Virus record (IMG/VR): IMGVR_UViG_3300005918_000002
Location: 1 to 58,935 of that record
DNA: 58,935 nt
Reading direction: 5' to 3' (one strand)
Origin: a virus
Taxonomy: Duplodnaviria; Caudoviricetes
The notes beneath the pieces were generated by a model that made no database searches, had not been told where the DNA came from, and saw only the letters and a list, made by a program, of their open reading frames with translations. Shown piece after piece: positions 7,675 to 25,693 of this stretch. Position 1 is the first letter of the stretch. Each line of letters opens with the position of its first letter. The position numbers were made by a program, and so were the translations under genes.

Positions 7675-7688
7675 TGGGGAGAAATGAC

Positions 7689-12024: not shown

Positions 12025-12030
12025 GTTTTT

Positions 12031-12785: not shown

Positions 12786-12796
12786 TGGAGTAAAGC

Positions 12797-13222
12797 ATGA
12801 ATACAAAAACATTATTTAATTTGTTAAGATCAGATGGGTGCATAGTAGTAAACAAGACATTGGCAAAAAATATAGGTATTAATGCCGCTATTATGTATTC
12901 AGAATTATTAAGTAAGTATTATTATTTTAGCGATAACAATATGCTTACGGAAACGGGAATGTTTTTTAATACGATTGAAGATATAGAAAAAGACACAACA
13001 TTAACAGGTTATCAACAGCGCAAAGCGATTTATAAATTATTCAAATTAGATTTAATAGAAGTTCAGGTTACCGGAATGCCAGCGCGGCGTTATTTTAAGA
13101 TCATGCAGAACATGAAAAATGTGGAAACATTACTCAATCCCAGTTATAAAGAAACTTCACGGCAGGTAGTAAAGAAACTTGACGGTAATAATACTAAGAA
13201 CAATACTAAGGGAAATATATAA
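12797..13222 (+). CDS. Phage replication initiator-like protein (N-terminal winged helix)
   Basis: NKTLAKNIGINAAIMYSEL...FFNTIEDIEKDTTL..QQRKAI..GMPARRYF pattern. Confidence 0.7.
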   Translation: MNTKTLFNLLRSDGCIVVNKTLAKNIGINAAIMYSELLSKYYYFSDNNMLTETGMFFNTIEDIEKDTTLTGYQQRKAIYKLFKLDLIEVQVTGMPARRYFKIMQNMKNVETLLNPSYKETSRQVVKKLDGNNTKNNTKGNI

Positions 13223-13285
13223 ATACTAAGAAACGTATTTATATATTTACGCAAGCGTACAAATAACTAATACAAAAGAGGAAAC

Positions 13286-13576
13286 ATGACAAAAGCAGAA
13301 CAAACCCGACGGGAACAGATGGAGGATATTATTATTCGCCTGTCCGTTCTAACTGAAAAAGAATCCGCCAGACTTTGGGGAATGGCCGGAAAGTTCTGGA
13401 ATGAATACGGGTACGCCGAAACTATGCGGGTGCTGGCTGGAATTTGGCCGGTGAAACCCATTGCATATATTTGTGGAGTATTAAAATCGGAAGAACTGAA
13501 AACAGTTGACCTGTCAACCATGCAGCTCCCGCAAGAGGTGTATGATAATCTTGGTGGGTTTGGAGGTGTAAAATAA
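13286..13576 (+). CDS. Hypothetical protein (possible replication accessory)
   Basis: GAGG RBS; KPIAYICGVLK motif. Confidence 0.45.
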   Translation: MTKAEQTRREQMEDIIIRLSVLTEKESARLWGMAGKFWNEYGYAETMRVLAGIWPVKPIAYICGVLKSEELKTVDLSTMQLPQEVYDNLGGFGGVK

Positions 13577-13578
13577 TG

Positions 13579-13642
13579 CACTAACGTTGTAGATATAATT
13601 GGTGGATGGTTTTCACCATCCATTTCATATCGCTTGTTATGT
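13579..13642. mobile_element. attC-like site A
   Basis: CACTAAC...GATATAA/TT-C-ATATC...GTTATGT around a TGGATGGT/ACCATCCA hairpin; near-identical to site I. Confidence 0.75.
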
Positions 13643-13670
13643 TGCACAATGAAAGAACCGGAGATTATGT

Positions 13671-14486
13671 ATGATTGAAAGTAACGATAAAAGAGATTCT
13701 GTGGGTGGGGGTAGTTCCCTTTCCCCTGCTTGTACTCTTTTGCTCGGCGATTGTTTGGAAGTAATGAAGGATATACCAGACGGATCAATAGATGCGATTA
13801 TAACAGACCCGCCTTATGGAACTACTGCTTGTAAATGGGATAGTATTATTCCCTTAGAACCTATGTGGGGGCAGTTAAAGCGGGTCATCAAGCCGAACGG
13901 TGCTATCGTTATGACAGCAAGCCAGCCGTTCACCACAACCCTGATAGCGTCTAATATGAAGATGTTTAAGTATTGCTGGGTGTGGGATAAGCGAGTAGCA
14001 TCTAATTCTCAGCTTGCTAAGATTCAGCCACTAAAGATTCACGAAGATATTTGTGTTTTTGGTGTCGGCAGAATCACATACAATCCACAAGGTCTTACTG
14101 ATTGCAATATAAGCAAGAGTAATAAGAACAGAAGTAAAGGAGTTGGTCACGTTGGCAGTGAATCAAAAAGGGAAAGTTTTACCCAAACAAAAACAGGCTA
14201 TCCTAAGTCAATCCAAAACTTTAAGCCAAATAATATCGGCAAAATGCACCCAACTCAAAAGCCAGTAGCCCTAATGGAGTATCTAATTAAAACATATACT
14301 AACGAGAATGAAACAGTATTAGATTTTGCAATGGGAAGCGGAACAACTGGCGTAGCGTGTAAGAATCTAAATCGTAATTTCATAGGCATAGAAAAAGAAG
14401 AGAAGTATTTCAACATTTCAAAGGATCGTATTTCCCTAATCCCTAAAGGGGGTGGGAATTGCGATCAAACAGCATTAGCAATATAA
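13671..14486 (+). CDS. DNA N6-adenine/N4-cytosine methyltransferase (beta class)
   Basis: GDCLEVM, DPPY, HPTQKP and LDFAMGSGTT motifs. Confidence 0.93.
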   Translation: MIESNDKRDSVGGGSSLSPACTLLLGDCLEVMKDIPDGSIDAIITDPPYGTTACKWDSIIPLEPMWGQLKRVIKPNGAIVMTASQPFTTTLIASNMKMFKYCWVWDKRVASNSQLAKIQPLKIHEDICVFGVGRITYNPQGLTDCNISKSNKNRSKGVGHVGSESKRESFTQTKTGYPKSIQNFKPNNIGKMHPTQKPVALMEYLIKTYTNENETVLDFAMGSGTTGVACKNLNRNFIGIEKEEKYFNISKDRISLIPKGGGNCDQTALAI

Positions 14487-14538
14487 CCATTTCATAACCT
14501 GCCATGTTTCACCGGTCAGGTTGATGAACAGGTTAGAA
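14481..14538. mobile_element. attC-like site B
   Basis: ATATAAC..TTCAT-AACCTG-CC / GG-T-CAGGTT-G-ATGAA..GTTAGAA; MTase stop codon lies within TAAC. Confidence 0.85.
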
Positions 14539-14589
14539 AAATAATAAAAAAGAATGGTAAATATTAATCACAACAGGTGGAGGGGCAAA

Positions 14590-14874
14590 ATGAAATTCAG
14601 TATGAGAATTGGCGATTTTGAATTGAAATCATGTAATCAATATTTAACATCACTTGGTGAACACACAACAGCAGAAATAGTTCAATGGTCAAAAGATGAG
14701 ACAACGGGGAGGCTTTATTGTTGGACTATTGCATGCTGGCGTGAAGACAAAGAGGGATTTGATTTATATTTTATAGATAGTAGACCGTTTGAATGTGATG
14801 CCGAAACATTTTTTAAATTAGCAAAAACGGGACAAATATTTTTAACGGAATATCTGGAAAAGAAGTCAAGTTGA
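14590..14874 (+). CDS. Hypothetical protein
   Basis: GGAGGGG RBS; flanked by an 18-bp imperfect direct repeat. Confidence 0.55.
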   Translation: MKFSMRIGDFELKSCNQYLTSLGEHTTAEIVQWSKDETTGRLYCWTIACWREDKEGFDLYFIDSRPFECDAETFFKLAKTGQIFLTEYLEKKSS

Positions 14875-15135
14875 CATTAATCATAACAGGTAGGGAGGTG
14901 AGATAATTTGAGCTATATAATAACTGCGGATGTCTATTTAGACGAAGAAGAGAATTCATATGGTGAAATTGTAAAAGTAAATGCACGGATTTTATCTAAA
15001 CAGGGATCTTGTATAACTTTTGATATTGCCGGAGATCATTCGAGAAAACGAAAAAGAACAAAGATGTTGTGTGATACACTTATAAATGCAGGGTTTTATT
15101 CATTTAATATACGGCATTCTTATTAAAGGGCAAAT

Positions 15136-16368
15136 ATGACAACAATTTTTGACAATCCTCCACCCCAAGCAATTGATGCGGAAATGTCCGTGCTTGGATC
15201 AATACTGCTTGACAATAAAGTAATAAATATTGTAAAGCTATTACCAAAGCATTTTTACAGAACTTCGCATCGCCAGATATTTCAAGCTATGTTAAACATG
15301 GATAACCAGCCTATTGATATTATCTCGCTTGAGGAGCAGTTGAAAAAAGAAAAGTTGCTTGAAGAAATTGGCGGTTCATATTATCTAACAGAGCTTGCAG
15401 AATCCGTTCCCTCTGCGGCCAATGTTTATGAACATGTGAAAATCGTAATGGAAAAATATACACTAAGGCAAATAATTGAACTGGCATATAACGCAACTAA
15501 GGAAGCGAACGACCTTAATGAGTCAGGCGCAATAATAGATTCATTCTGTAATAAACTTGTTGAGCTATCAATTGCAGAGGTTAGGTCTGATCACATATCA
15601 GAGGCCTTGCATGAATTTAATGATTATGTAGACAGGAAACAAGCTGGCGAAATTGTAGACGTAAAAGTTCCGTTCATTGATAATTTTGAGGAAGGTGAAG
15701 TTATTGTTTTGGCGGCACGTCCCAGTCACGGTAAAACTTCGCTTGCTACCCAGATACTTTTTGAGTGTAATGTTCCGGCTGGTTTAATATCAATGGAAAG
15801 CACAAGAAAAAAAATAGCCGGTAGGATGTTGGCGCAACTTTCGCGAATTGATTCTAAAAAATTAAGTAGGGGAATGCTTGAGGGTGCAGACGTTGCGAGT
15901 GTAATTCAGGCATCCACCGAATTGGCAGAAGCACCAATATATCTTGATTTTGCATCTGATAAGATTTATGAAGTATTGGCTACTGGTCATAGATGGATAA
16001 AAGAACACAATATAAAATTATTAATCATTGATTATCTTCAGCTGATACGTGGAGGTAAAAGCGAAAGTAAGAATATAGAGATTGAAAATATTTCCAGGTC
16101 TTTGATGAGATTTGCAAAAAGAACCGGTGTACCCTTATTGATTTTATCACAATTAAGCCGGGATGGAAAGGTTAAACCGGGGCTTGAACATTTACGAGGT
16201 TCAGGAGCAATTGAGCAGGATGCCGACAGGGTTATATTTATTCGTCGACTTCACATCGAAAATGTCAGTGAGGTAATAATTGAAACGGCGAAATATAGAG
16301 ATGGTGAAATCGGCGAAATACTATTACATTTTAGGAAGGAAATGATGTTGTTTAATAAAGATTTTTAA
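15136..16368 (+). CDS. dnaB: Replicative DNA helicase DnaB-like
   Basis: PPQAIDAEMSVLGSIL N-terminus, AARPSHGKT, IIDYLQL, LSQLSR and LRGSGAIEQDAD motifs. Confidence 0.95.
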   Translation: MTTIFDNPPPQAIDAEMSVLGSILLDNKVINIVKLLPKHFYRTSHRQIFQAMLNMDNQPIDIISLEEQLKKEKLLEEIGGSYYLTELAESVPSAANVYEHVKIVMEKYTLRQIIELAYNATKEANDLNESGAIIDSFCNKLVELSIAEVRSDHISEALHEFNDYVDRKQAGEIVDVKVPFIDNFEEGEVIVLAARPSHGKTSLATQILFECNVPAGLISMESTRKKIAGRMLAQLSRIDSKKLSRGMLEGADVASVIQASTELAEAPIYLDFASDKIYEVLATGHRWIKEHNIKLLIIDYLQLIRGGKSESKNIEIENISRSLMRFAKRTGVPLLILSQLSRDGKVKPGLEHLRGSGAIEQDADRVIFIRRLHIENVSEVIIETAKYRDGEIGEILLHFRKEMMLFNKDF

Positions 16369-16411
16369 AGTGAAAATAAAACTTGTTTTTTAATAAAACC
16401 TAGGGGTGTAA

Positions 16412-16633
16412 TGATAACGTTCAAAGATAACCTGCCTTGCGGTGGTCGGGCATAATTGAAAGGATTTAATGATATGGATATAGTTGATGCACTTCAAGAG
16501 TATTTAGACAAAACAAATCTTGGGAATAATTTACTTTTAGATGATTTATTGTGTTCATCGAGGGATGTTATCAAAGAGTTGAGGGAGGCGGGGCAAGGTG
16601 AGTTGGGCGGTAATCAAGATGGGGTGGTTATTG
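16412..16633. mobile_element. attC-like site C (long loop, degenerate right arm)
   Basis: Left arm TGATAACGTTCAAAGATAACCTG matches site F from AAC onward; CCTTGC/GCAAGG pairing; right box GTTATTG at 16627. Confidence 0.5.
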
Positions 16634-16785
16634 ATATAAAGACGGCATTTGCTTTAGCGCACCCGAATATGTTTAGACCTGAACCGGTGTATGGTTGCAA
16701 GGCATGTAATCGACAAGTCGTACTTGAGAGTGACGACTATTGCCCAAAGTGTGGTGTAAAAATAACTTGGGTGGGAAAATCTTGA
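16474..16785 (+). CDS. Hypothetical protein with C-terminal zinc ribbon; starts inside the loop of site C
   Basis: CKAC...YCPKCG. Confidence 0.55.
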   Translation: MDIVDALQEYLDKTNLGNNLLLDDLLCSSRDVIKELREAGQGELGGNQDGVVIDIKTAFALAHPNMFRPEPVYGCKACNRQVVLESDDYCPKCGVKITWVGKS

Positions 16786-16789
16786 TTCC

Positions 16790-16865
16790 GAATAACAGTT
16801 ATATTCACCGGCGGAAGGCTGGGACGTGGGCGGAAGGGCCGTCCGTGTACAATATTTGGTTATCT
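16790..16865. mobile_element. attC-like site D
   Basis: GAATAAC..ATATTCACCGGCGG / CCGTCCGTGTA-C-AATAT..GTTATCT. Confidence 0.65.
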
Positions 16866-16902
16866 TTTTCGCCCCTAATCCCTAAGTTAATCAATAAATG
16901 TC

Positions 16903-16931
16903 TTGACATTAACAAATGATATATGTATATT
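16903..16931 (+). promoter_or_regulatory. Sigma70-like promoter
   Basis: TTGACA-N17-TATATT. Confidence 0.7.
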
Positions 16932-16940
16932 AAAATAACG

Positions 16941-17176
16941 AAAAATTGAGGGGAAAACGTAATTGAGATCATTGGGAAATTTGGACGCGCAACTTGTTGA
17001 AAGGTTATAGTAGCGAGTAGCAGCCATGTGCCATAGGCAATCTTGGCCCCGTATGGGTAGCAAATTAACCGGAAGGACAAGCTCTGTGAAGACTGGATAG
17101 CAGCCGACGAACAACTCGGAAATTCCCCAGCGAACGAGCCAACACAAAATGGTACTGAGGACACCCCTCAATTTTT
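16941..17176 (+). ncRNA. Candidate structured ncRNA (~236 nt), family unassigned
   Basis: Begins about 10 nt after the -10 box; perfect 13-bp closing stem AAAAATTGAGGGG/CCCCTCAATTTTT; GC-richer than flanks; no + strand ORF in the ORF track. Confidence 0.55.
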
Positions 17177-17191
17177 ATTAAGGAAAATTAA

Positions 17192-17341
17192 ATGCCAGCA
17201 CCTAAAAAGAAGCATCCAAAACAGCCATTAGGAATTCGCCTTCACCCTTTCATAATTAAGCGGTTAAGAAAAGAGGGTAAATATAATGCACTTATTCAGC
17301 GTTTATTATGTGAATATTTCGGTATAGACCTTGGCGAATAA
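17192..17341 (+). CDS. Ribbon-helix-helix-like small DNA-binding protein, 49 aa (not in ORF track)
   Basis: MPAPKKKHPKQPLGIRLHPFIIKRLRKEG...LCEYFGIDL; paralogous to the ORFs at 19900 and 21591. Confidence 0.6.
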   Translation: MPAPKKKHPKQPLGIRLHPFIIKRLRKEGKYNALIQRLLCEYFGIDLGE

Positions 17342-17487
17342 ATATAACGACCCAAATAACCGGCTTTGCCGGGAAGGGAATTTAAAATGAGTTTATTTGA
17401 CGAGGCTACCGAAAGAATGTTAGACGACGAAGAGAGAGAGAGGATATTGGCGGCGGAGCAAAGTCCGTGTTCATTACCGTGTTCTAC
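17342..17487. mobile_element. attC-like site E (ORF start in loop)
   Basis: ATATAAC..AAT-AACCGG-CTTTGC / GCAAAG-T-CCGTGTT-C-ATT..GTTCTAC. Confidence 0.75.
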
Positions 17488-17695
17488 AGGGGATAGTCGG
17501 GACGGGAAGGGTGGCCTTAAAAATGGTGGGTGGTTTAAGAATGAACGCGAAAGTAAGGTGCCGTGCAGGAATTGCCGTTGTCCACATTGGGGTGACAAAT
17601 ACAATCAAAGTTGTGGTGCGTCTGATATAATAAGTGAAAAATGCGCAATGATTTGTGAGGAATACATACCGAAAAGATTGGTGGGGGATTTTTAA
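17387..17695 (+). CDS. Cys-rich hypothetical protein starting in the loop of site E
   Basis: GGGAAGGG RBS and ATG 17387; reads through the right arm of the site. Confidence 0.55.
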   Translation: MSLFDEATERMLDDEERERILAAEQSPCSLPCSTGDSRDGKGGLKNGGWFKNERESKVPCRNCRCPHWGDKYNQSCGASDIISEKCAMICEEYIPKRLVGDF

Positions 17696-17699
17696 GTGT

Positions 17700-17921
17700 G
17701 TAGAACGTTCAAAGATAACCTGCGAAATGGCGGGGGAAGGAATTGGAAAAGATGGATTTAGATAAAAAATATTATACCAGTGAATACATTGAATGTAATA
17801 TACTTCAACTCGTAAAAATGGAACCAGAGTGGGCGGCTTATAGGATACAAGCAGGAGAGAAAGCAATTGAACAGCTTGAGGGTGAGGCGGGGATTTCGTC
17901 AGGTTCATCTAGTGGTTCTAC
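17700..17921. mobile_element. attC-like site F (ORF start in loop)
   Basis: GTAGAAC..AGAT-AACCTG-CGAAAT / ATTTCG-T-CAGGTT-C-ATCT..GTTCTAC. Confidence 0.85.
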
Positions 17922-18219
17922 AGTGGGGGGCGGTGTGGTGATGGATGGCATTAAAAAATTCATGGGTGGAAGGGCTTGTTTAAAGATTGGCGATGGATCA
18001 ACACTTATCAGTGAAGCCCATTATAAGGACAGTATTGATAATGTCCTCGTATTGACGCAATATCACGAGTGTAGAAAAATAGGGTCAGAGCTAAAAGGTT
18101 CTGCCGGCAACCCTGCTACCAACAACGGCACAGTACTTGAAATAGTATTTACAAACTCCACTTCTGTACAAGTTGTAATAGACGCACTAGTTAAAATAAA
18201 AGCGGCCCTTGGGGAATGA
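17752..18219 (+). CDS. Hypothetical protein starting in the loop of site F
   Basis: ORF reads through the right arm (GISSGSSSGST). Confidence 0.55.
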   Translation: MDLDKKYYTSEYIECNILQLVKMEPEWAAYRIQAGEKAIEQLEGEAGISSGSSSGSTVGGGVVMDGIKKFMGGRACLKIGDGSTLISEAHYKDSIDNVLVLTQYHECRKIGSELKGSAGNPATNNGTVLEIVFTNSTSVQVVIDALVKIKAALGE

Positions 18220-18231
18220 ATTATTTAATGT

Positions 18232-18289
18232 GTAGAACCACTTCATAACCTGCCACGTTTCACCGGTCAGGTTGATGAACATGTTAGAA
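18232..18289. mobile_element. attC-like site G
   Basis: Near-identical to site B; GTAGAAC...GTTAGAA. Confidence 0.85.
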
Positions 18290-18310
18290 AATCGGAGAGG
18301 AGTAATTATT

Positions 18311-18505
18311 ATGAGTTGCTGGACAAAAGAAGAACTGGAAAACATGCTTGAAGATGTTGTTAATGAGTTAGAGTTGTCCGGTTCTATATTAGAAGAACAT
18401 GGGCCATTAGGAACACCGCCAGCTGAATTGGTTAGGCTTGTATTGGATGAGAAGGATAAAATCATATCAGCACAAAAAGCCGGATTAAAAATTATATTTT
18501 CTTAA
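18311..18505 (+). CDS. Hypothetical protein (cassette G-H)
   Basis: GAGGAG RBS and ATG 18311. Confidence 0.55.
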   Translation: MSCWTKEELENMLEDVVNELELSGSILEEHGPLGTPPAELVRLVLDEKDKIISAQKAGLKIIFS

Positions 18506-18506
18506 C

Positions 18507-18730
18507 ATATAACATTGGGCTCACCGATTTAGCGGTGGGGAAAGGATAGAATACTATGAGCGTACCAATTAGACATTTAAAACAAGCTTTGGCAATTATG
18601 GGTGTTTCAACCCCAGAAAGTCTTGAGGAATTTAGACAAGATGAATTAAAATGGATTAACAAGCTTGTTTTTACCGTAGTAATATTTGGGGATGAAGGGG
18701 CAAAATCCGCCGTGCAGCCAGTGGTTAGCC
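18507..18730. mobile_element. attC-like site H (ORF start in loop)
   Basis: ATATAAC..GGCT-CACCGATTTAGC / GCAAAATCCGCCGTG-C-AGCC..GTTAGCC. Confidence 0.65.
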
Positions 18731-18897
18731 AAGACGGAGCGGCGGCAAAGGTTGATATTATTCGTCCACTTATTGATGATACCATGAAATATCACAGAAC
18801 GGCGAACAGTAGAGCGAGTAAATTACTAACTGCATTGAATATTAGTGTTGATGCAGTTAAGGAGATACTTAAAGAGTGGGTTGATCGGAGTCAGTAA
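18556..18897 (+). CDS. Hypothetical protein starting in the loop of site H
   Basis: AAGGA RBS; reads through the right arm (AKSAVQPVVS). Confidence 0.55.
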   Translation: MSVPIRHLKQALAIMGVSTPESLEEFRQDELKWINKLVFTVVIFGDEGAKSAVQPVVSQDGAAAKVDIIRPLIDDTMKYHRTANSRASKLLTALNISVDAVKEILKEWVDRSQ

Positions 18898-19056
18898 GAA
18901 GAGGTAAACCATGAAAAACCTTATAAGAAAAATCGGTGAAACAATAATGTTTATCATTGAGTTTTTAGTAACTCTGTTAGGATATGGCCTGTTTGATTTT
19001 AAAGATGGGTTAGAATCTTATGGTAAACCAAAGTATATTAAAATACGGGGGACGAA

Positions 19057-19545
19057 ATGAAAAGGCAAAATTTATTTAAGGCGGCCATTTGCAGTTTTAT
19101 CCTGGCGGTAATTGCAATCATTCTTTTTTCCGGATGCCGTGACGATACGGCAGTTTGGAAACGTATTGCAGAATTGGAAAAGAAGCAAGTCGCAACGGAG
19201 GCCGCTCTTGACAGTGTGGTTTTCAAGGCGGAATTGAGACGAGAAATAAATACAGTCTGGCTCGGAATCGACGGGCTGGATGAAGAAATTATTGACATTG
19301 AAACCCGGCAAGCGGCAATAATGAACCGTCTTGCAAAGTTGGAAGTTGATACCGGGGGAATTATACTTATTTGGAATGAGAATAAATTCGATCCCCGGCG
19401 GCCAGTATACGGATACCGGATTTATTTAGGAAATCACTTGATCTGGGCAGGTCAGGACACATCCGTAACGCTGGAAAATTTAAGGTATTCGGCGTATAAT
19501 TCTGCCGGGGAATCGTTTGGTTTGGAGAAGGTGAGGATAAAATGA
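19057..19545 (+). CDS. Putative lipoprotein
   Basis: Signal peptide with LFSG-C lipobox; Fn3-like fragments YGYRIY..SAYNSAGES. Confidence 0.6.
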   Translation: MKRQNLFKAAICSFILAVIAIILFSGCRDDTAVWKRIAELEKKQVATEAALDSVVFKAELRREINTVWLGIDGLDEEIIDIETRQAAIMNRLAKLEVDTGGIILIWNENKFDPRRPVYGYRIYLGNHLIWAGQDTSVTLENLRYSAYNSAGESFGLEKVRIK

Positions 19546-19607
19546 ATATTTTTTCACGCCTAACCCCTTGTTTCTGTTGCCCTCTTTGAAAATAGTTGAA
19601 AAAAGAC

Positions 19608-19636
19608 TTGACTTTAATCTAAATGATTAGTATATT
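19608..19636 (+). promoter_or_regulatory. Sigma70-like promoter
   Basis: TTGACT-N17-TATATT; shares AAAAAAGACTTGACTTT context with the 6744 promoter. Confidence 0.7.
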
Positions 19637-19899
19637 TATAGTGTCATGAGAGACCAAACTAAAAAAAACGAGGAAAAGAAAGTGACAGCGATACAACAAG
19701 AATTGAAAAGATATGCAGAGATAAGAGCGCAATTATATCAGATTAAAGGTTTTGGGGGGACATCAATTAACGCTGCTATATCTTATGCCGTTGCTGATAT
19801 GATTAATGAACTCAATAATTTTGCAACCAATAAGGTTGAATATTTAAAAAGCGAAAACGAATATCTTTTAGGGTGTATATCGAAATTAAAGGAAGTAGC

Positions 19900-20268
19900 A
19901 TGAGAGGCGGCAAACGAGAAGGGGCCGGACGCAAGCCCAAGCCCGATAAAAAGAAGCCCGTATCTTTTCGCCTTCATCCTAAACTGATTGAACGGTTGAA
20001 GAGAGAAGAAAACCAAGCAAGTGCAATTGAAAAGGCATTGTGCCGATGGTTCGGTATAGACCTTGATGAGCAAGAGACAGAAAAAGAGGGCAAGGCAATG
20101 AAGATAGTTAGAATTAATGAAATTATTTTAAGGGCCAATACTTATCCAACATATTTTGTAGATTATAAGATAGGTAAGGACTGTTGGAAAAATTATGGTA
20201 GTTCTTGTGTCTATGCGGCTGCATTAGAAATGAAAAAACAAATAAATTCCGGGGAAATAGTACTATGA
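19900..20268 (+). CDS. Ribbon-helix-helix-like DNA-binding protein, apparently fused to a second small domain
   Basis: RGGKREGAGRKP...VSFRLHPKLIERL. Confidence 0.65.
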   Translation: MRGGKREGAGRKPKPDKKKPVSFRLHPKLIERLKREENQASAIEKALCRWFGIDLDEQETEKEGKAMKIVRINEIILRANTYPTYFVDYKIGKDCWKNYGSSCVYAAALEMKKQINSGEIVL

Positions 20269-20904
20269 TTTTTAGAGTTAAATTTAAGATAGATGGAAAT
20301 GAAAAATCCGCAATTGAGCCAGAATGTGGATGGTTTTTAATTGACCAACAGGGAAAGTTTTATAGTTATGGGCCATGTTCACCTGTAAAACCTGTTGAAA
20401 GTTGCATTAAAGAAATAGAGCCTTTAATATTAATAAACAATGAGTACTTGACAATTGAAGAGATAGAAGAAAGGATTAATAAATTTTGAATATTTCGAGA
20501 TAGACCTTGATGAATAAAAGATGAGGATTGAATGAAGGTTATAAAGTGTAAAAAATGTGGTATGACCTTGTGGCTCAAGGCTGATAGTAAAAAGAAATGC
20601 CACATTCCTAAACGATGTTCATTTTGTGGAGAATATTACATCTTGATGAATAAAAGGATGAAAGAGCAAGTAACACAATGATTCTAAATAATATTATATT
20701 TAATAATCGGTTATTTCGTATATTCGACAAAAAGAAACAGACCTACTGGGAAATTCTCTGCCGGATTGATTATGACACAGAAGAGATAACCGTTATAAAC
20801 AGGGGTGACGAAGACGAAACAACTGTTTTTTTTGGAGATGTATTGATTCATGGTGATATTTCAGCAACCTTGATAAATAAACAAATAAAAACGGGGAGTT
20901 TAAA

Positions 20905-21285
20905 ATGAAAGTCAGAATGAGCGCGCAAATGATTGATGATAATAACATCTTGATTCAACTTAATTTCTCAGGAAAAGGCGTTGATAGCGCTGAAATGATT
21001 GGAAGCGAAGCAAAAAAATATCAAGCAGAAGTACAAAAAATTGATTATGAGGATCAAATGAAAGTTACAATCAGAACCGCAGACATTAAACGGCACGGCA
21101 CAACTATTTTGCTTGGCCAAAAACGAACGGCAACCGAAGGGCGTGAGGGTAACCTGAAAACACTTAACATCCGCGAGAATGGTAAACACATTAAATCTTT
21201 TAGAGGCAGTTCTCTTGGTTTTTGTAATCCTCTTACAGATAAGGATAAGGATTATTTGGCCTCGCTCGGAAGCAATATTGAATAA
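20905..21285 (+). CDS. Hypothetical protein
   Basis: GGGGAG RBS; 126 aa. Confidence 0.5.
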   Translation: MKVRMSAQMIDDNNILIQLNFSGKGVDSAEMIGSEAKKYQAEVQKIDYEDQMKVTIRTADIKRHGTTILLGQKRTATEGREGNLKTLNIRENGKHIKSFRGSSLGFCNPLTDKDKDYLASLGSNIE

Positions 21286-21590
21286 AGACAACCAGACGGT
21301 TTTAAATTTATGCCGCCGCAAAATATCTGGAAGCTACTAAAGCACACTTGTAAAAAAGGAGACAAAATGGGACAGGATGAAACTTATTTTTATGACGGGC
21401 AAAAAGTAGAAGCTCTTCATTTTGAAGATGGGACACACTGGACCGTTGGCCAGTCAGGGATTGAGAAGATTATTGTAATCATGGAAAACGGAGAGATGGC
21501 AAGTGTTGTGTGGTTTGGCGTTTATAAAGACGGAAAATTAACATTTAAACAAAATCGTAAGTTTGTTAGCCACGCAACTATGGTTAAAAT

Positions 21591-21782
21591 ATGAGGGGCG
21601 GCAAACGACTAGGGGCTGGACGCAAACCGGCCCTTCACAAAAAGCGGATGGTATCTTTTCGACTTCATCCAAAATTGATTGAACGGTTGAAGATGGAAAA
21701 TAATCAGGCCAGTGCAATTGAAAAGGCATTATGCCAATGGTTTAATATAGATCTTCAACAAGGAGACAATGAGCAACTTTGA
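21591..21782 (+). CDS. Ribbon-helix-helix-like DNA-binding protein (paralog of 19900)
   Basis: RGGKRLGAGRKP...VSFRLHPKLIERLK..NQASAIEKALC. Confidence 0.7.
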   Translation: MRGGKRLGAGRKPALHKKRMVSFRLHPKLIERLKMENNQASAIEKALCQWFNIDLQQGDNEQL

Positions 21783-22208
21783 TAAAATGACCAGAAATCC
21801 ATCCACTGGCAAATTACAAAAAGCTAGTTGGATAGATAACTATTTTGGGAATCATATATACGGAGTTCAATTCCCGGATGGTAAAATCTGGAATGAAAAA
21901 GATATTAAAGATATTGAAGGGGATGTAGAGGAGATTACAATAATTGAACATGATGGGTTCCATTGCGGTGTCTGTGGTAAATGGGTAGCCAGGAAAAAGA
22001 AAGTATCTCAGTTTGCTGTTCAATGGTGGGACATCTGGGGACTATGTGACAGGTGCGATAATTGCAGGGGAGGGGATTTAAAATGAGAAATGTAATAAAG
22101 TGTACAAACGAAATTCATGTGATATTAAAAAAATATAAGTGTAAGAATGGTGATAAGTGCAGTAAATGCGGCAATACTGAATTGAGTAGTGATGAAACTT
22201 TTTAGCAT

Positions 22209-22272
22209 GCATAACGTTGGAGATATAATTGGTGGATGGTTTTCACCATCCATTTCATATCGCTTGTTATGT
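22209..22272. mobile_element. attC-like site I
   Basis: GCATAAC...GTTATGT; near-identical to site A. Confidence 0.8.
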
Positions 22273-22309
22273 TTTTCACCCCTATAACCAAAGAATGGAA
22301 AGGATTAGA

Positions 22310-22870
22310 ATGAAGGTGTTAATTGCTTGTGAATATTCCGGTGTAGTGCGTGACGCATTTATTAAGAGAGGCCACGATGCAGTGAGTTGTGACATTTTAC
22401 CAACAGAGAGATCCGGGCCCCATTATATGGGTAATGTTTTACCCCTATTGGGTGAAGGGTGGGATCTTATGATTGCTCATCCACCGTGTACAAGATTATG
22501 TAACTCAGGTGTTTGCTGGCTTGACAAAAGGAACCTTTGGGACGAAATGAGAGAGGGGGCCCGGTTTTTCAAAACTTTACTAAATGCGGACATACCTAGA
22601 ATTGCTATAGAGAATCCTATACCACATGGTTATGCGGTGAGAGAGATTGGTAAAAAATATGATCAGATTATACAGCCTTGGCAATTCGGGCACGGGGAGA
22701 CAAAGGCCACTTGTCTATGGCTAAAGAACTTGCCAAAATTAGAACCAACTAGAATTGCTAAAGGAAGAGAGCAGCGATTGCACATGTTGCCGCCTTCTAA
22801 AGATAGGGCGAAGTTGAGGAGTAAAACGTATTTTGGTATCGCTGACGCAATGGCAATTCAATGGGGTTGA
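22310..22870 (+). CDS. Short phage-type DNA cytosine methyltransferase-like protein
   Basis: VLIACEYSG, SCD, HPPC and IENP motifs (C5-MTase motifs I/IV/VI-like); GIADAMAIQW C-terminus. Confidence 0.8.
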   Translation: MKVLIACEYSGVVRDAFIKRGHDAVSCDILPTERSGPHYMGNVLPLLGEGWDLMIAHPPCTRLCNSGVCWLDKRNLWDEMREGARFFKTLLNADIPRIAIENPIPHGYAVREIGKKYDQIIQPWQFGHGETKATCLWLKNLPKLEPTRIAKGREQRLHMLPPSKDRAKLRSKTYFGIADAMAIQWG

Positions 22871-22888
22871 CCTATACCCTGTGAATAA

Positions 22889-22946
22889 ATATAACGCCCA
22901 TTATCAGCGGCGGGCGTTTATCGTCCGCTGCATAATTTTGTTATAA
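22889..22946. mobile_element. attC-like site J
   Basis: ATATAAC..ATTAT-CAGCGG-CG / CG-T-CCGCTG-C-ATAAT..GTTATAA. Confidence 0.85.
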
Positions 22947-22962
22947 TTGGAGGGAATATAAA

Positions 22963-23148
22963 ATGAATGAATACGATGTAAAAAGATTAGCTTTGATTTT
23001 GGCCATACAAGCAGACATTGAAGGAATGAAAATTGAAAACAAGGTTAGGTTGAGTAACAATCAATCACCAGCATATCCCGATGGTGAATTTATGATGAAA
23101 TCGGAAGAATTAAGAGAACTGGCCTATAAACACAATGAACAATTATAA
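22963..23148 (+). CDS. Hypothetical protein (cassette J-K)
   Basis: GGAGGG RBS; stop codon within the TAAC of site K. Confidence 0.65.
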   Translation: MNEYDVKRLALILAIQADIEGMKIENKVRLSNNQSPAYPDGEFMMKSEELRELAYKHNEQL

Positions 23149-23222
23149 CGTTGGTGCTTACCGGCAAATAGGCGGTAAGGAATTGGCTGTGACGGGTTGC
23201 CGCGTACAGCACTTTGTTAGCC
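23143..23222. mobile_element. attC-like site K
   Basis: TTATAAC..GTGCT-TACCGGCAA / TTGCCGCGTA-C-AGCAC..GTTAGCC. Confidence 0.8.
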
Positions 23223-23280
23223 TTAGAGAATGTGGCGTACAGAGCCACGCTTATGAACGGCGTACACGAGGGAAGATGAC

Positions 23281-24237
23281 TTGAATATGTTAGACTTATT
23301 TTCAGGAATCGGCGGATTTCGATTAGCAGCGCAAAGGGTTTGGGGGGAATCTCTAAACTGTAAATGCATGGTAGAGCTTGACCCGTTCTGTCAAAAGGTA
23401 CTTATGAAAAATTGGCCAGGAGTGACAATACATGACGACATTAAAACATTCAAGGGGAGCGGATGGGGAACAATTGACATTCTTACCGGGGGGTTTCCAT
23501 GCCAACCGTTTAGTGTTGCCGGGAAGCAGGGAGGCCGGGAGGATGACCGTTACCTCTGGCCTGAAATGCTCCGCGTTATTAAAGAAGCAAAGCCCCGTTG
23601 GGTTGTTGGGGAAAATGTTACTGGAATCATCAATCTGGCACTCGACGACGTGCTTACTTCGTTGGAAGGTGAGGGGTACGAGACAGAAACGTTTATTATT
23701 CCAGCTTGCGGTGCGGACGCCAAACACAGAAGGAACCGAGTCTGGATTGTTGCCAACAATGAGGGGTCGTTTGACGGGCAACCTATCCCCAAAGAGGTGT
23801 GGGGACAAATTCAACAACTTAGAATCAGTGTTGAGTCGGCAAATGTGGCCAACCCCAAGTGTAAACGAGCCGGGGTGGAAATACAGGACACCAGTAGACA
23901 AGAATGGAAATGCACCAACCCATCACAATCAAAGATGGTACGACAAGGAAACGGGGCGGTTAATGCAGAAAGGATTGGAGCATGCAGTGAAGATGTGGCC
24001 GACAATGACCGCTTGCGAATGGAAGGGGAGAGGCCCGAACAGCAAACAAAAGGGATTAACGAACGCAATTGGATGTACGGGTGGGAGCCTGAACCCTCAG
24101 TGGGTCGAGTGGCTGATGGGATACCCTCAAGGGTGGACAGACTTAAATCACTCGGAAACTCAATAGTGCCGCAAGTGGCTGAACGAATTTTCTGGGGGTT
24201 GCGCTGTGTAGAAGAGGCATTGTGTACGCAAGGCTAA
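23281..24237 (+). CDS. DNA (cytosine-5)-methyltransferase, large subunit
   Basis: DLFSGIGG, GGFPCQPFS, ENV, HRRNRVW and LGNSIVP motifs. Confidence 0.93.
   Translation: MNMLDLFSGIGGFRLAAQRVWGESLNCKCMVELDPFCQKVLMKNWPGVTIHDDIKTFKGSGWGTIDILTGGFPCQPFSVAGKQGGREDDRYLWPEMLRVIKEAKPRWVVGENVTGIINLALDDVLTSLEGEGYETETFIIPACGADAKHRRNRVWIVANNEGSFDGQPIPKEVWGQIQQLRISVESANVANPKCKRAGVEIQDTSRQEWKCTNPSQSKMVRQGNGAVNAERIGACSEDVADNDRLRMEGERPEQQTKGINERNWMYGWEPEPSVGRVADGIPSRVDRLKSLGNSIVPQVAERIFWGLRCVEEALCTQG
23432..24166 (+). CDS. Nested alternative-frame ORF, putative second C5-MTase subunit (motif IX-like)
   Basis: 244 open codons inside the MTase gene; GGAG upstream; LNPQWVEWLMGYPQGWT C-terminus. Confidence 0.65.
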   Translation: MTTLKHSRGADGEQLTFLPGGFHANRLVLPGSREAGRMTVTSGLKCSALLKKQSPVGLLGKMLLESSIWHSTTCLLRWKVRGTRQKRLLFQLAVRTPNTEGTESGLLPTMRGRLTGNLSPKRCGDKFNNLESVLSRQMWPTPSVNEPGWKYRTPVDKNGNAPTHHNQRWYDKETGRLMQKGLEHAVKMWPTMTACEWKGRGPNSKQKGLTNAIGCTGGSLNPQWVEWLMGYPQGWTDLNHSETQ

Positions 24238-24291
24238 CCACTTCATAACCTGCCGCTGTAGTCCACGGTCAGGTTCATGAACAGGTTAGAC
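24232..24291. mobile_element. attC-like site L
   Basis: GGCTAAC..TTCAT-AACCTG-CCG / CGG-T-CAGGTT-C-ATGAA..GTTAGAC; MTase stop codon within TAAC. Confidence 0.85.
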
Positions 24292-24556
24292 AAAATAAAG
24301 GAGAGTAAATATTTGATAAAGCCACATGTCTTCCGAGTAGTTCACGGCAAGGGTGAATTACTAGAGGGAGGAGAAGTTACCAGGTATCGGGGAATGAATT
24401 TCCATACCTGCAATATAAAAAGTAAAAAGAATATCTGCCAGTGGTGTGGCGAGCTTACGGATAACGAGAGGTTTTGCACAACCGGCCACATGTGGAAACA
24501 TCGGAAAAAGGTGAAACGTTACGCAAAGAACGTAACATAAAAAACGGATTGTTATA

Positions 24557-24979
24557 ATGAAAGAACTCCCATTTTCAAAACAGAAACAAGTTGGACGGGG
24601 TGCTATAGACGTAACGGAATATCGTAATATGGTATGCAAAGAAGCTGATCTTCAACGGCAAGCAGAGGAGTATTTACAGGTTCAAGGTATACCATTTATC
24701 AGGGTACCTGATGCGATATACAAAGCGATTTTTTCAAGCCGAACAATTAAGCCATATATTAAAGCGTTGATTTCAAGATTCATTAAGGGTTTGCCGGATC
24801 TTATAATTTTAGACCCCGCTGGCCGCTGGAATAGGGCCTGTTGTATTGAATTAAAATCGGCAACTGGAAAATTATCGCAGGGCCAAAAGAATTTTGCTAA
24901 ACGAGTTAATGTAGTTGTCAAGCGTAATTTTGAAGATTTTGTAAAAGAAGTTGAAGAGTTTTTAAACGGGAAGGAATAG
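24557..24979 (+). CDS. VRR-NUC domain nuclease
   Basis: EADLQ, GLPDLI and IELKSATGKLSQGQ motifs. Confidence 0.85.
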   Translation: MKELPFSKQKQVGRGAIDVTEYRNMVCKEADLQRQAEEYLQVQGIPFIRVPDAIYKAIFSSRTIKPYIKALISRFIKGLPDLIILDPAGRWNRACCIELKSATGKLSQGQKNFAKRVNVVVKRNFEDFVKEVEEFLNGKE

Positions 24980-24988
24980 AGATTCTTG

Positions 24989-25017
24989 TTGACTTTTACG
25001 ATAATTTTCAGTAGATT
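24989..25017 (+). promoter_or_regulatory. Sigma70-like promoter
   Basis: TTGACT-N17-TAGATT. Confidence 0.55.
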
Positions 25018-25045
25018 AATAGTGTATAAATAACGGGTTAAGTAA

Positions 25046-25693
25046 ATGTTAGAATTGAATAAAATTTACAACATGGACAATATGAAAGGTATGGCGCATT
25101 TTTCTGATAACTATTTTGAGTTGGCGATAGTCGACCCGCCGTATGGGATAAATCGAAGTAAAAATTTTGGCATGAAAGAATTTGGATGGGTTCAACACAA
25201 GCGGTCTGAATGGGATTCTGAAAAACCAAAGCCTGAATACTTTAAGGAATTGTTTAGGATTTCGGAAAACCAAATAATATGGGGTGGGAATTATATGGTT
25301 GAACATTTAAAGCCATCAATGGGTTGGGTGTTTTGGGATAAGGGACAGAGAAAGTTTTCTACCAGCGATGGAGAGTTGGCGTATACGAGTTTCAATAAAA
25401 AGTTAAAAGTTTTCAATTTAAGCCGGGCTGGTGCGTTGTCGGATAATGGGGGCAAGCCAATACACGCCACTCAAAAGCCCATAAAGCTCTACAAATGGCT
25501 ACTCCACAACTACGCCAAACAAGGCGACAAGATACTTGACACTCATTCCGGATCAGCCAGTTTAGCAATAGCCTGTGAATGGATGGGATTTGATTATATC
25601 GCATTTGAAACAGATATAGACTATTGGACTGACAGCTTAAAAAGATTAGAACAGGAACGGCAGAAGATGCAACAGATAAAAATGGAGTTATAA
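25046..25693 (+). CDS. DNA N6-adenine/N4-cytosine methyltransferase
   Basis: DPPY, HATQKP and LDTHSGSAS motifs. Confidence 0.9.
   Translation: MLELNKIYNMDNMKGMAHFSDNYFELAIVDPPYGINRSKNFGMKEFGWVQHKRSEWDSEKPKPEYFKELFRISENQIIWGGNYMVEHLKPSMGWVFWDKGQRKFSTSDGELAYTSFNKKLKVFNLSRAGALSDNGGKPIHATQKPIKLYKWLLHNYAKQGDKILDTHSGSASLAIACEWMGFDYIAFETDIDYWTDSLKRLEQERQKMQQIKMEL

What the first reader, a model, noticed from the sequence alone, without database searches (positions are those of the whole stretch)
13579..24291. Phage-borne array of 12 integron attC-like sites: a candidate gene-cassette shuffling system
Seen: 12 imperfect inverted repeats bounded by xxx(T/G)AAC...GTTxxxx at 13579-13642 (A), 14481-14538 (B), 16412-16633 (C, degenerate), 16790-16865 (D), 17342-17487 (E), 17700-17921 (F), 18232-18289 (G), 18507-18730 (H), 22209-22272 (I), 22889-22946 (J), 23143-23222 (K) and 24232-24291 (L). 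They form three clusters enclosing nine short units, most with a single gene. Sequences differ (families A/I, B/G/L, C/F) but the fold is kept: an unpaired spacer, then a stem with a bulged G/C separated from GTT by 8 nt (9 in A/I), and in B, F, G, J, L a bulged T a further 6 nt in. Established: this is the geometry of attC sites such as attC-aadA1 recognised by IntI on folded ssDNA. Inference: the phage's accessory genome is built from integron-type cassettes. I do not know of a description of this arrangement in phages but cannot check the literature.
Basis: partly seen in the sequence, partly recalled or inferred. Interest (0 to 1): 0.95.

Follow-up and report, generated by a model that had tools for sequence, protein, structure and literature searches.

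The report
Mirror-polarity integron cassettes in a phage
A complete salt-lake phage genome carries three rows of genuine integron-type recombination hairpins around nine small gene units, three of them DNA methyltransferases, but with the genes facing the opposite way to those in bacterial integrons; phage-borne sites of this kind were first reported in 2023.

Summary
The twelve AAC...GTT hairpins lie where stated, all on the + strand, in three clusters (A-B, C-H, I-L).

A covariance model built only from genuine attC bottom strands of a complete integron finds J, B, K, L and I as the five best matches of the whole window. The reverse model, built only from those five sites, finds G, D and A here. 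It also finds the true attCs of that integron, and attCs beside a classical integron integrase in a Bacteroidota genome.

The 3' box of each site complements the 5' box of the next (34 of 44 positions, P = 2e-5). Real integron arrays show the same signature. F is strongly supported by its arms, E and H moderately, C weakly.

The phage record is complete and holds no tyrosine recombinase, so these are CALIN-type arrays that would need a host IntI. That step is inferred.

One defining habit is broken: in all nine units the gene is sense to the bottom-strand-like strand. It is antisense in every bacterial and phage control.

Phage CALINs with methyltransferase cargo are already published (Qi et al. 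2023). I therefore class this as a new variant of a known kind. This scan has noted similar arrays on other DNA. No cassette gain or loss could be shown for this phage itself.

The parts
13579..13642 (+). Site A, first site of cluster 1 (A/I family)
   Evidence: 98% identical to I over 62 nt. Window-derived model R2 gives 17.9 bits, E 0.11, and A was not in its training set. True-attC model R1 gives only 8.6 bits. The bulge is 9 nt from GTT.
13671..14486 (+). Cassette gene A-B: N6/N4 DNA methyltransferase. Its TAA stop lies inside the 5' box of site B.
   Evidence: Pfam PF01555, 116.9 bits. ORF end 14486 and AAC at 14485.
14481..14538 (+). Site B, last site of cluster 1 (B/G/L family)
   Evidence: R1 22.6 bits, E 0.002; the - strand scores only 8.5 bits. 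Descriptor 10/10.
16412..16633 (+). Site C, long and degenerate. The 5' arm is good; the 3' partner is doubtful.
   Evidence: The 20 nt after AAC are identical to F. Arm pairing is not above chance (0.13). Its 3' box complements D's 5' box at 3 of 4 outer positions.
16474..16785 (+). Unit C-D gene, 103 aa. The start codon lies inside the loop of C.
   Evidence: ORF list. Only weak zinc-ribbon hits below Pfam cut-offs.
16790..16865 (+). Site D
   Evidence: R2 22.2 bits, E 0.008, not in its training set. Arms 0.025.
16903..17341 (+). Unit D-E: promoter-like site, a stretch of about 236 nt without a + strand ORF closed by a 13-bp stem, then a 49-aa ORF (17192-17341).
   Evidence: TTGACA-17-TATATT, 11 of 12. 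Fold z-score -1.85. No Rfam match.
17342..17487 (+). Site E, long (AAC to GTT 138 nt). The start of the next gene (17387) lies in its loop.
   Evidence: Arms 0.012. Its 3' box GTTCTAC is the exact complement of F's 5' box.
17387..17695 (+). Unit E-F gene, 102 aa, no family
17700..17921 (+). Site F, long (214 nt), same L-box family as B/G/L. The start of the next gene (17752) lies in its loop, and its 3' arm is coding.
   Evidence: Descriptor 10/10. Arms -17.4 kcal/mol, 0 of 3000 random pairs as good.
17752..18219 (+). Unit F-G gene, 155 aa, no family
   Evidence: No Pfam family. No tblastn match in 50,697 phage records.
18232..18289 (+). Site G (B/G/L family)
   Evidence: R2 34.6 bits, E 4e-6, not in its training set. 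Descriptor 10/10. 93% identical to B.
18311..18505 (+). Unit G-H gene, 64 aa. The unit's ends are not complementary (2 of 4).
18507..18730 (+). Site H, long (216 nt), last site of cluster 2. The start of the next gene (18556) lies in its loop.
   Evidence: Arms 0.032. By my reading of the sequence, a bulged C lies 8 nt from GTT.
22209..22272 (+). Site I, first site of cluster 3 (A/I family)
   Evidence: R1 13.1 bits, fifth best hit of the window. R2 22.6 bits, but I was in its training set.
22310..22870 (+). Cassette gene I-J: small phage-type DNA methyltransferase
   Evidence: tblastn finds it in 164 phage records, annotated there as DNA (cytosine) methyltransferase, up to 63.6% identity. No Pfam hit.
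22889..22946 (+). Site J
   Evidence: Best R1 hit of the window, 32.2 bits, E 9e-6. Descriptor 10/10.
22963..23148 (+). Cassette gene J-K, 61 aa. Its stop lies inside the 5' box of K.
23143..23222 (+). Site K
   Evidence: R1 21.4 bits, E 0.004. Arms 1/3000, with two bulges on the 3' arm.
23287..24237 (+). Cassette gene K-L: C5 cytosine DNA methyltransferase. Its stop lies inside the 5' box of L.
   Evidence: Pfam PF00145, 144 bits.
24232..24291 (+). Site L, last site of cluster 3 (B/G/L family)
   Evidence: R1 16.3 bits, E 0.08. Descriptor 10/10. Arms 0/3000.

Best explanation
Shown:
- The hairpins are integron-type attC sites. They form three integrase-less clusters (CALINs) in the early/replication region of a complete phage genome that has no tyrosine recombinase.
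- The + strand of each site has the anatomy of an attC bottom strand. From the 5' end it reads: a 5' RYYYAAC-type box, a short unpaired spacer, a stem whose 3' arm carries a bulged G/C 8 nt before GTT (often with a bulged T 6 nt further in), a variable loop, and a 3' GTTRRRY-type box.
- The sites belong to the same sequence and structure family as attCs that sit beside a classical integron integrase in a Bacteroidota genome.
- Eight single units (A-B, C-D, D-E, E-F, F-G, I-J, J-K, K-L) have ends that would pair into an R stem if the unit were circular.

Inferred:
- During infection a host integron integrase binds the folded + strand and cuts in the 5' AAC.
- It then exchanges, excises or inserts units of the form [C + site + gene + RYYYAA].
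- This would let the phage change its set of DNA methyltransferases (three of the nine units) and small accessory genes.

Difference from the canonical rule: each gene lies downstream of its site and sense to the bottom-strand-like strand. This is the mirror image of bacterial cassettes. The two large blocks between clusters (B to C with DnaB, H to I with about 14 small genes) are ordinary phage genes, not cassettes.
For: 1. Model from genuine attCs
- Model R1 was built only from 12 genuine attC bottom strands of Shewanella phage M16-3's integron and CALIN.
- Run over the whole window, both strands, filters off, its five best hits are J 32.2, B 22.6, K 21.4, L 16.3 and I 13.1 bits.
- In 158,659 bases of eight other phage loci the best score is 14.5 bits.
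- The same model finds exactly three sites (29.1, 24.5, 18.3 bits) in Tetrasphaera phage TJE1, the number Qi et al. report for that phage (PMC9892861 legend to Figure 2).

2. Reverse model
- Model R2 holds sequence from J, B, K, L and I only.
- In the window it finds G 34.6, D 22.2 and A 17.9 bits, and nothing else at E<1.
- In 98.9 kb of three phage loci its 13 best hits are all attCs of M16-3, on the strand antisense to the cassette genes.

3. Covariation
- On the five sites aligned to the true-attC structure, 98.4% of cells pair, against 78.6% in shuffles and 26-44% when partners are slid.
- 6 of 14 pairs carry compensatory changes, and 0 of 500 shuffles reach the covariation score.
- The alignment was fitted to that structure, and B and L are related.

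4. Cassette-end complementarity
- The outer four bases of the 3' box of site n complement the 5' box of site n+1 at 34 of 44 positions.
- The permutation mean is 21.9, and 2 of 100,000 permutations reach 34.
- The eight single units give 28 of 32. Within one site the figure is 25 of 48.
- Real arrays give 4/4 in 10 of 11 neighbour pairs of M16-3. The one miss is my script taking the wrong GTT. TJE1 gives 2 of 2.

5. Crossover side
- In B/G/L the 3' boxes are conserved (GTTAGAA, GTTAGAA, GTTAGAC).
- Their 5' boxes differ (ATATAAC, GTAGAAC, GGCTAAC).
- This fits a crossover in the 5' AAC of the + strand, as Nivina et al. 2016 describe for the bottom strand (PMC5027507, passages read).

6. Bacterial counterpart
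- R2 hits occur in 9 of 25 genomes from the phylum of G003, whose record title reads Marinifilum sp..
- 4 of 5 genomes with R2 hits hold a TIGR02249 match over the curated cut-off.
- On G013:C322 the integrase scores 372.5 bits against a cut-off of 265. It is 40% identical over 312 aa to M16-3 IntI with 3 gap positions.
- That integrase faces + strand cassettes followed by R2 hits on the - strand.
- Those sites share the ACCTGCC...GGTCAGGT core of B/G/L/F.

7. No recombinase in the phage
- There is no TIGR02249 or PF00589 match in the complete record.
Against: - No cassette gain, loss or circle was seen for this phage.
- It has no close relative in the collections searched. The nearest DnaB is 49% identical, and that locus has no such sites.
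- Gene polarity breaks the canonical rule in 9 of 9 units. Ordinary bacterial cassettes would therefore enter this array antisense to phage transcription, and these units would be silent in a host integron.
- G, C, E, F and H are not found by R1, and C, E, F and H are not found by R2 either. C is not above chance on its arms.
- Four sites (138-216 nt from AAC to GTT) hold the next gene's start in the loop and have coding 3' arms. I know of no description of this for attC sites (recalled).
- Cassette-end matches are less perfect than in real arrays: four units at 4/4, four at 3/4, and G-H at 2/4.
- The host is unknown. Strong Shine-Dalgarno-like motifs before the genes (my reading) are not typical of Bacteroidota (recalled).
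- R1 and R2 E-values come from a shortened calibration.
Confidence: 0.78

Rival explanations
1. The sites are relics. They were acquired once as attC cassettes and are no longer recombined. They persist only as intergenic hairpins, perhaps stabilising or punctuating the long + strand transcripts.
For: - Cassette-end complementarity is imperfect: 28 of 32 for the eight best units and 2 of 4 for G-H.
- C has a decayed 3' arm.
- The 3' arms of E, F and H are now coding.
- Every site lies on the transcribed strand.
Against: - A/I (98%) and B/G (93%) are too alike for old, drifting relics.
- Bulge positions and paired columns are kept through compensatory changes.
- The best sites score like experimentally validated phage attCs: 16-32 bits here against 18-29 bits in TJE1.
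Confidence: 0.12
2. The sites are used by a recombinase other than the classical integron integrase. Candidates are a short Xer-type enzyme of other phages or of the host, as earlier notes of this scan propose for similar arrays, or the phage's own general recombination functions acting on the short shared boxes.
For: - Earlier AI notes report Xer-like recombinases beside similar arrays. I did not test this.
- Mirror polarity suggests a cassette pool kept apart from bacterial integrons.
- In two Flavobacterium phages, two indels have junctions inside the shared TAACGTT and CTTATAAC motifs that follow the stop codons. Sites there do not score with R1 or R2.
- The window encodes a PD-(D/E)XK nuclease-like protein, a weak match of 19.5 bits.
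Against: - For this window's site family, the partner found in bacteria is a classical IntI over the NCBIfam cut-off. It aligns through the whole length of a known IntI.
- Geometry matches IntI substrates down to the bulge spacing.
- The phage holds no tyrosine recombinase at E<=1.
Confidence: 0.08
3. The sites are intrinsic terminators, RNase processing stems or chance inverted repeats, with no role in recombination.
For: - They are intergenic and on the coding strand.
- J matches the terminator-like pattern.
Against: - Only 1 of 12 sites is terminator-like, and the region has 8 such hits against 9.7 expected.
- This reading does not explain the AAC/GTT boxes, the match to true attC models in both directions, or the complementarity between boxes that lie a whole gene apart.
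Confidence: 0.02

Closest known systems
Phage CALINs (clusters of attC sites lacking an integron integrase), Qi et al. 2023, Front Microbiol, PMC9892861 (outline, section 3.4 and passages read; supplements closed)
   Same: - attC sites in virulent-type phage genomes without an integrase.
- DNA methyltransferases as cargo.
- TJE1's three sites score like this window's with the same model.
   Different: - Twelve sites in three clusters and nine units, against the 3 attC sites described for TJE1 and a minimum of two per CALIN.
- All genes are sense to the bottom-strand-like strand, whereas TJE1 is canonical.
- The paper mentions only 'divergent directions' in Polaribacter phage P12002L.
- Four sites are long, with gene starts in the loop.
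- Their supplementary tables, which I could not see, may list further examples.
Classical chromosomal integrons with IntI, here the one on G013:C322 (locus L107) and that of Shewanella phage M16-3 (L001)
   Same: - Same site anatomy.
- Same L-box family (ACCTGCC...GGTCAGGT with a bulged T).
- Same cassette-end complementarity.
   Different: - No integrase and no recognisable attI in the phage.
- Cassette genes are antisense to the bottom strand in the integrons and sense in the phage.
attC of aadA7 and other mobile-integron attCs (Nivina et al. 2016, PMC5027507, passages read)
   Same: - Cleavage triplet AAC in the 5' box of the recombined strand.
- Extrahelical bases on the arm next to GTTRRRY.
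- The paper names G16 and T23 for attC-aadA7. Counting from the outer end of the 7-nt box (my assumption about their numbering), the bulges of B, F, G, J and L fall at 16 and 23.
   Different: - C replaces G at the first bulge in F, J, K and L.
- Gene polarity is mirrored.
PeSL 'mobile regulatory cassettes' of T4-type phages (recalled from memory, Arbiol et al. 2010; not looked up here)
   Same: Small accessory phage genes are each preceded by a stem-loop that is proposed to mediate shuffling.
   Different: PeSLs combine an early promoter with a stem-loop and have no AAC/GTT boxes or attC geometry. Here the sites match attC models and are not promoter-bearing as a class.

Membership tests
Integron attC site | Outer inverted boxes RYYYAAC / GTTRRRY with conserved AAC and GTT | tested here: met
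   12 of 12 sites have AAC and GTT. The outer four bases fit R/Y only loosely, as they also do in the genuine sites of M16-3.
Integron attC site | Folded strand with an R stem, an unpaired central spacer, an imperfect L stem with extrahelical base(s) on the arm next to GTTRRRY, and a variable terminal loop | tested here: met
   - Consensus of 12 genuine attCs: 5 bp, 2/2 unpaired, 5 bp, one bulge 8 nt from GTT, 4 bp.
- B, F, G, J and L meet this at 10/10 pairs.
- K, D, E and H show bulges on the same arm (and my reading).
- A/I have 9 nt instead of 8.
- C is doubtful.
Integron attC site | Recognised by a covariance model of genuine attC sites | tested here: met
   - R1 gives J 32.2, B 22.6, K 21.4, L 16.3 and I 13.1 bits, against a best of 14.5 bits in 158.7 kb of controls.
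- 7 of 12 sites (A, C, D, E, F, G, H) are not separated from noise by R1.
- This is my own model, not IntegronFinder's or HattCI's.
Integron attC site | In an array, the box at the end of one site complements the box at the start of the next (the circular cassette restores one site) | tested here: met
   34 of 44 positions, P = 2e-5. Eight units give 28 of 32. Real arrays give 4/4 in 10 of 11 and 2 of 2 neighbour pairs.
Integron attC site | Length about 57-141 nt (range recalled from memory) | tested here: inconclusive
   8 of 12 are 58-80 nt. E is 146 nt and C, F and H are 222-224 nt.
Integron gene cassette | Promoterless gene oriented so that the recombined bottom strand is antisense to it (Nivina et al. 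2016, passages) | tested here: not met
   0 of 9 units: all genes are on +, the strand that matches the bottom-strand models. Controls are canonical: M16-3, TJE1, L105, L107 and L108.
Complete integron | intI (TIGR02249) and attI next to the array | tested here: not met
   No TIGR02249 match at E<=0.01 and no PF00589 match at E<=1 in the complete record.
CALIN | Two or more attC sites close together without an integron integrase | tested here: met
   Clusters A-B, C-H and I-L. Model-supported sites are A, B / D, G / I, J, K, L.
Integron attC site | Recombined by an integron integrase as folded single-stranded DNA | not testable with these tools
   Needs attC x attI or attC x attC assays.

The most novel reading that the evidence does not exclude
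Phages of Bacteroidota-like hosts keep their own mirror-image pool of integron cassettes, with the site in front of the gene and the recombined strand equal to the coding strand.
- The pool is loaded mainly with anti-restriction methyltransferases.
- It is shuffled by the host's classical IntI during infection.
- The mirror polarity keeps phage cassettes expressed from phage promoters and silent in host integrons, and the reverse for host cassettes. Two cassette economies would then share one enzyme.

Support beyond this window:
- Polaribacter phage P12002L has further sense-polarity AAC...GTT hairpins beside its methyltransferase and Mom-like genes.
- Two Flavobacterium phages differ by whole [hairpin + gene] units joined within the shared TAAC-containing motifs.
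- Earlier notes of this scan report similar arrays (untested).
Probability: 0.4. Interest if true: 0.8.

Novelty: new variant of a known kind. Interest (0 to 1): 0.62.

Why it matters
- Integrons are the textbook gene-capture system of bacteria. Strand choice by the integrase is thought to exist in order to insert promoterless genes the right way round.
- A virulent-type phage with nine units that all face the other way, flanked by canonical sites of a family served by a classical IntI, makes that rule testable from the phage's side.
- It suggests that phages use the host enzyme to swap anti-restriction methyltransferases.
- It gives concrete substrates (B, J, K, L) and a concrete enzyme (the IntI of G013:C322) for an assay.
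- It shows that standard integron screens, which assume gene then attC, may misread phage arrays.

Tried and rejected
Rfam
- No family matched at gathering score over the window.
- None matched at E<=1 over 16850-17250.

MAFFT alignments of sites from different families
- A1 and A2 put the arms out of register.
- I therefore used my own descriptor and model-guided alignments instead.

Relatives of this phage
- megablast of 12000-26000 against 50,697 phage records matched only a 72-nt methyltransferase motif in 13 Flavobacterium phage records.
- DnaB found no close relative in viral contigs.
- With an alignment, the nearest locus (L005, 49% DnaB identity) shares only 7 ORFs with the window. It has no 10/10 descriptor hit and no R1 hit above 14 bits. 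It is too distant for breakpoint analysis.

Exact patterns of the B/G/L family
- 0 hits in viral contigs, metagenome contigs and genome contigs.

Sequencing runs
- 18 coded runs labelled salt lake metagenome hold part of the stretch.
- I laid contigs of 4 of the 18 (X5, X8, X9, X11).
- They gave pieces identical to the window.
- No joint fell at any site boundary.
- The joints listed lie inside methyltransferase motifs shared with other organisms.
- Contigs drop rare variants, so this says nothing either way.

Other negative or failed steps
- R1 gave no hit at E<=0.25 on P12002L's sites, and R2 gave only 15.7 bits at 30006-30059.
- The first version of my Flavobacterium site script demanded closed ends and returned nothing; the relaxed version is.
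- In a sample of 41 genomes from the phylum of G004/G005, R2 hit 2 genomes. Stricter filters applied there, so this is not strictly comparable with 9 of 25.
- L105's array has no recombinase within 13 kb.
- The F-G protein has no tblastn match in phage records.
- I did not compute a 10/10-only shuffle count, did not run IntegronFinder or HattCI (not available), and did not determine the host.

Full report
WHAT THE WINDOW IS. The window is one complete virus record of 58,845 bp plus a 90-nt terminal direct repeat. The collection classes it as having direct terminal repeats and as 100% complete. Nearly all long ORFs are on the + strand. The stretch 13.5-24.3 kb lies in the replication and early region. 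It holds:
- an N6/N4 DNA methyltransferase (13671-14486);
- DnaB (15136-16368);
- a C5 methyltransferase (23287-24237);
- a VRR-NUC protein (24557-24979);
- a small methyltransferase (22310-22870) found in 164 phage records.
A fourth methyltransferase (25046-25693) lies just outside the stretch.

THE OBSERVATION. All twelve sites have AAC and GTT at the stated ends. A/I, B/G/L and C/F are sequence families.

I wrote a rigid descriptor: AAC, a spacer, a 4+6 bp stem, a single bulge on the 3' arm, 8 nt, GTT. It is met at 10 of 10 pairs only by B, F, G, J and L, all on the + strand. Hits at 9 of 10 are background, with 14 hits at 9/10 or better against a mean of 8.0 in shuffles.

I compared arm pairing with 3000 random AAC..GTT pairs. 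F, L, J, K and B are far beyond chance. E, I, D, G and H fall at 0.01-0.03. C (0.13) and A (0.16) are not above chance. A is a 98% copy of I. Only J looks like an intrinsic terminator.

ARE THEY attC SITES? I used a genuine integron as a yardstick. Shewanella phage M16-3 has an annotated integron integrase, a cassette array running away from it, and a second integrase-less array.
- My descriptor picks up its intergenic sites only on the strand antisense to the cassette genes.
- Twelve of those sites, aligned, give an RNAalifold consensus of a 5-bp R stem, 2/2 unpaired, 5 bp, one bulge on the 3' arm 8 nt before GTT, and 4 bp. This is the layout of B, G, L and J.
- The covariance model R1 made from them was run over the whole window, both strands, without filters. 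Its five best hits are J (32.2 bits, E 9e-6), B (22.6), K (21.4), L (16.3) and I (13.1). D and A sit in the noise, and G, C, E, F and H are not listed.
- In 158,659 bases of eight other phage loci the best score is 14.5 bits.
- In Tetrasphaera phage TJE1, R1 finds exactly three sites at 18-29 bits. Two attCs of that phage were tested with IntI1 by Qi et al., where five of the six phage sites tested recombined.

The reverse test used model R2, built from J, B, K, L and I alone.
- In the window it finds G (34.6 bits), D (22.2) and A (17.9), and nothing else at E<1.
- In 98.9 kb of three phage loci, its 13 best hits are all attCs of M16-3 on the bottom strand.
- On the five aligned sites, 98.4% of cells pair and 6 of 14 pairs carry compensatory changes. 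Shuffled and slid controls are far lower. The alignment was fitted to the structure and the sample is small.

ARE THEY CASSETTES? In an array, a crossover inside the box means that the box ending one site and the box starting the next come from one circular cassette, so they should be complementary.
- Here the outer four bases match at 34 of 44 positions. The permutation mean is 21.9, and 2 of 100,000 permutations reach 34.
- E-F, F-G, J-K and K-L are perfect.
- A-B, C-D, D-E and I-J are 3 of 4.
- B-C, G-H and H-I are at the chance level of 2 of 4. Two of these three are the multi-gene blocks.
- The same count in real arrays gives 4 of 4 in 10 of 11 neighbour pairs of M16-3 and in 2 of 2 of TJE1. 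The one miss in M16-3 is my script picking a wrong GTT.
- Within the B/G/L family the 3' boxes are conserved and the 5' boxes differ. This places the crossover in the 5' AAC of the + strand, where Nivina et al. 2016 place cleavage on the bottom strand.
- In B, K and L the TAA stop of the upstream gene lies inside that 5' box. A cut after AA would therefore leave each unit with its own stop codon.

WHICH ENZYME? The phage has none. There is no TIGR02249 match at E<=0.01 and no PF00589 match at E<=1. Earlier notes of this scan on other DNA led me to look in Bacteroidota genomes.
- R2 hits 9 of 25 genomes drawn from the phylum of G003, whose record title reads Marinifilum sp..
- It hits 2 of 41 genomes from the phylum of two other handles, where stricter filters applied.
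- The hits form arrays with genes antisense to the hit strand (L105, L107, L108).
- 4 of 5 genomes with hits hold an integron integrase over NCBIfam's cut-off.
- On G013:C322 the integrase scores 372.5 bits against a cut-off of 265. It is 40% identical over 312 aa, with 3 gap positions, to the M16-3 integrase. It faces a row of + strand cassettes, each followed by an R2 hit on the - strand.
- Those sites share the ACCTGCC...GGTCAGGT core, the bulged T and the G/C bulge of the window's B, G, L and F.
For this site family the bacterial partner is therefore a classical IntI, not the Xer-like enzyme that the earlier notes describe for their windows. That a host IntI acts on the phage's sites remains an inference.

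WHAT IS UNUSUAL.
- Polarity. In M16-3, TJE1 and the three bacterial arrays, the model-positive strand is antisense to the cassette genes. In the window it is the coding strand in 9 of 9 units. Each unit is therefore [site + gene], not [gene + site].
- Four long sites. E, F, H and the doubtful C place a Shine-Dalgarno-like motif and the start codon of the next gene directly after the 5' arm. Their 3' arm lies about 50 codons into the ORF.
- One unit, D-E, carries a strong promoter-like site and an ORF-free structured stretch.
- Clusters 1 and 3 are bounded by the same site families, A/I on the left and B/L on the right.

WHAT IS KNOWN. Qi et al. 2023 screened 10,705 phage genomes. They found 17 CALINs and noted five methyltransferases in phage cassettes. 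They showed IntI1-mediated recombination for five of six phage attCs (PMC9892861; outline, section 3.4 and passages read; supplements closed). Three full-text searches found no other paper on attC sites in phages and none on mirror polarity. This scan has flagged similar arrays on other DNA.

WHAT IS NOT SHOWN. No relative close enough for breakpoint mapping exists in the collections searched. Contigs from four salt-lake runs show only the same arrangement. Mobility of these units is inferred from the site anatomy and from the end complementarity.

VERDICT. The integron reading is supported for at least nine sites: A, B, D, G, I, J, K, L and F. It is plausible for E and H and weak for C. The kind is known. 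The mirror polarity, the long gene-bearing sites and the size of the array make it a new variant.

Noticed in passing
window 16903-17176: A promoter-like site (TTGACA-17-TATATT, 11 of 12) is followed by about 236 nt without a + strand ORF, closed by a 13-bp stem that ends in a T-run. The RNA fold z-score is only -1.85, and there is no Rfam match even at E<=1. It is a candidate small RNA carried inside unit D-E.
   Followed up: partly
window 17192-17341, 19900-20064, 21591-21755, 20487-20518: Three paralogous small ORFs: 19900-20064 and 21591-21755 are 79% identical over 165 nt, and all three share a 32-nt 3' end. A fourth orphan copy of the 3' end alone lies at 20487-20518 (families D2 and D5). 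This is a footprint of recombination that does not involve the AAC/GTT sites.
   Followed up: no
L015 (MN812206) 5688-5748, 7257-7277, 8053-8204, 8452-8520 against L016 (MN812220): Flavobacterium phages filifjonk9-1 and mumin6-1 differ by two indels. One is 1.55 kb and holds a methyltransferase and two ORFs; the other is 383 bp and holds one ORF. Their junctions lie inside the shared motifs TAACGTT and CTTATAAC that follow the stop codons. Several intergenic regions there are long AAC...GTT inverted repeats (-15 to -16 kcal/mol arms). R1 and R2 do not score them.
   Followed up: partly
L002 (NC_028924) 29974-30088, 38016-38128, 38817-38960, 32127-32290: Polaribacter phage P12002L has at least four AAC...GTT hairpins on the coding strand beside its methyltransferase and Mom-like genes. 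Qi et al. describe two attC sites there. The polarity is the same as in this window.
   Followed up: partly
window 7753-8112: A run of 15-nt tandem repeats lies inside ORF 7671-8282, which encodes a pentapeptide-repeat protein (Pfam PF00805, 63.2 bits).
   Followed up: no
window 25046-25693: A fourth DNA methyltransferase (PF01555, C-terminal part only, 43.6 bits) lies 750 nt beyond site L. No model-supported site flanks it.
   Followed up: no
L107 (G013:C322) 1425-2282: The Bacteroidota integron has two further R2 hits on the far side of intI, next to + strand ORFs. This looks like a second short array beside the integrase.
   Followed up: no
window 18311-18363: Contigs of other organisms in the salt-lake runs share only the first 52 nt or so of the G-H unit's gene, then diverge on both sides. 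Depth there is 12-32 against about 5. The N-terminus of this 64-aa protein is therefore shared with other elements in the same lakes.
   Followed up: no
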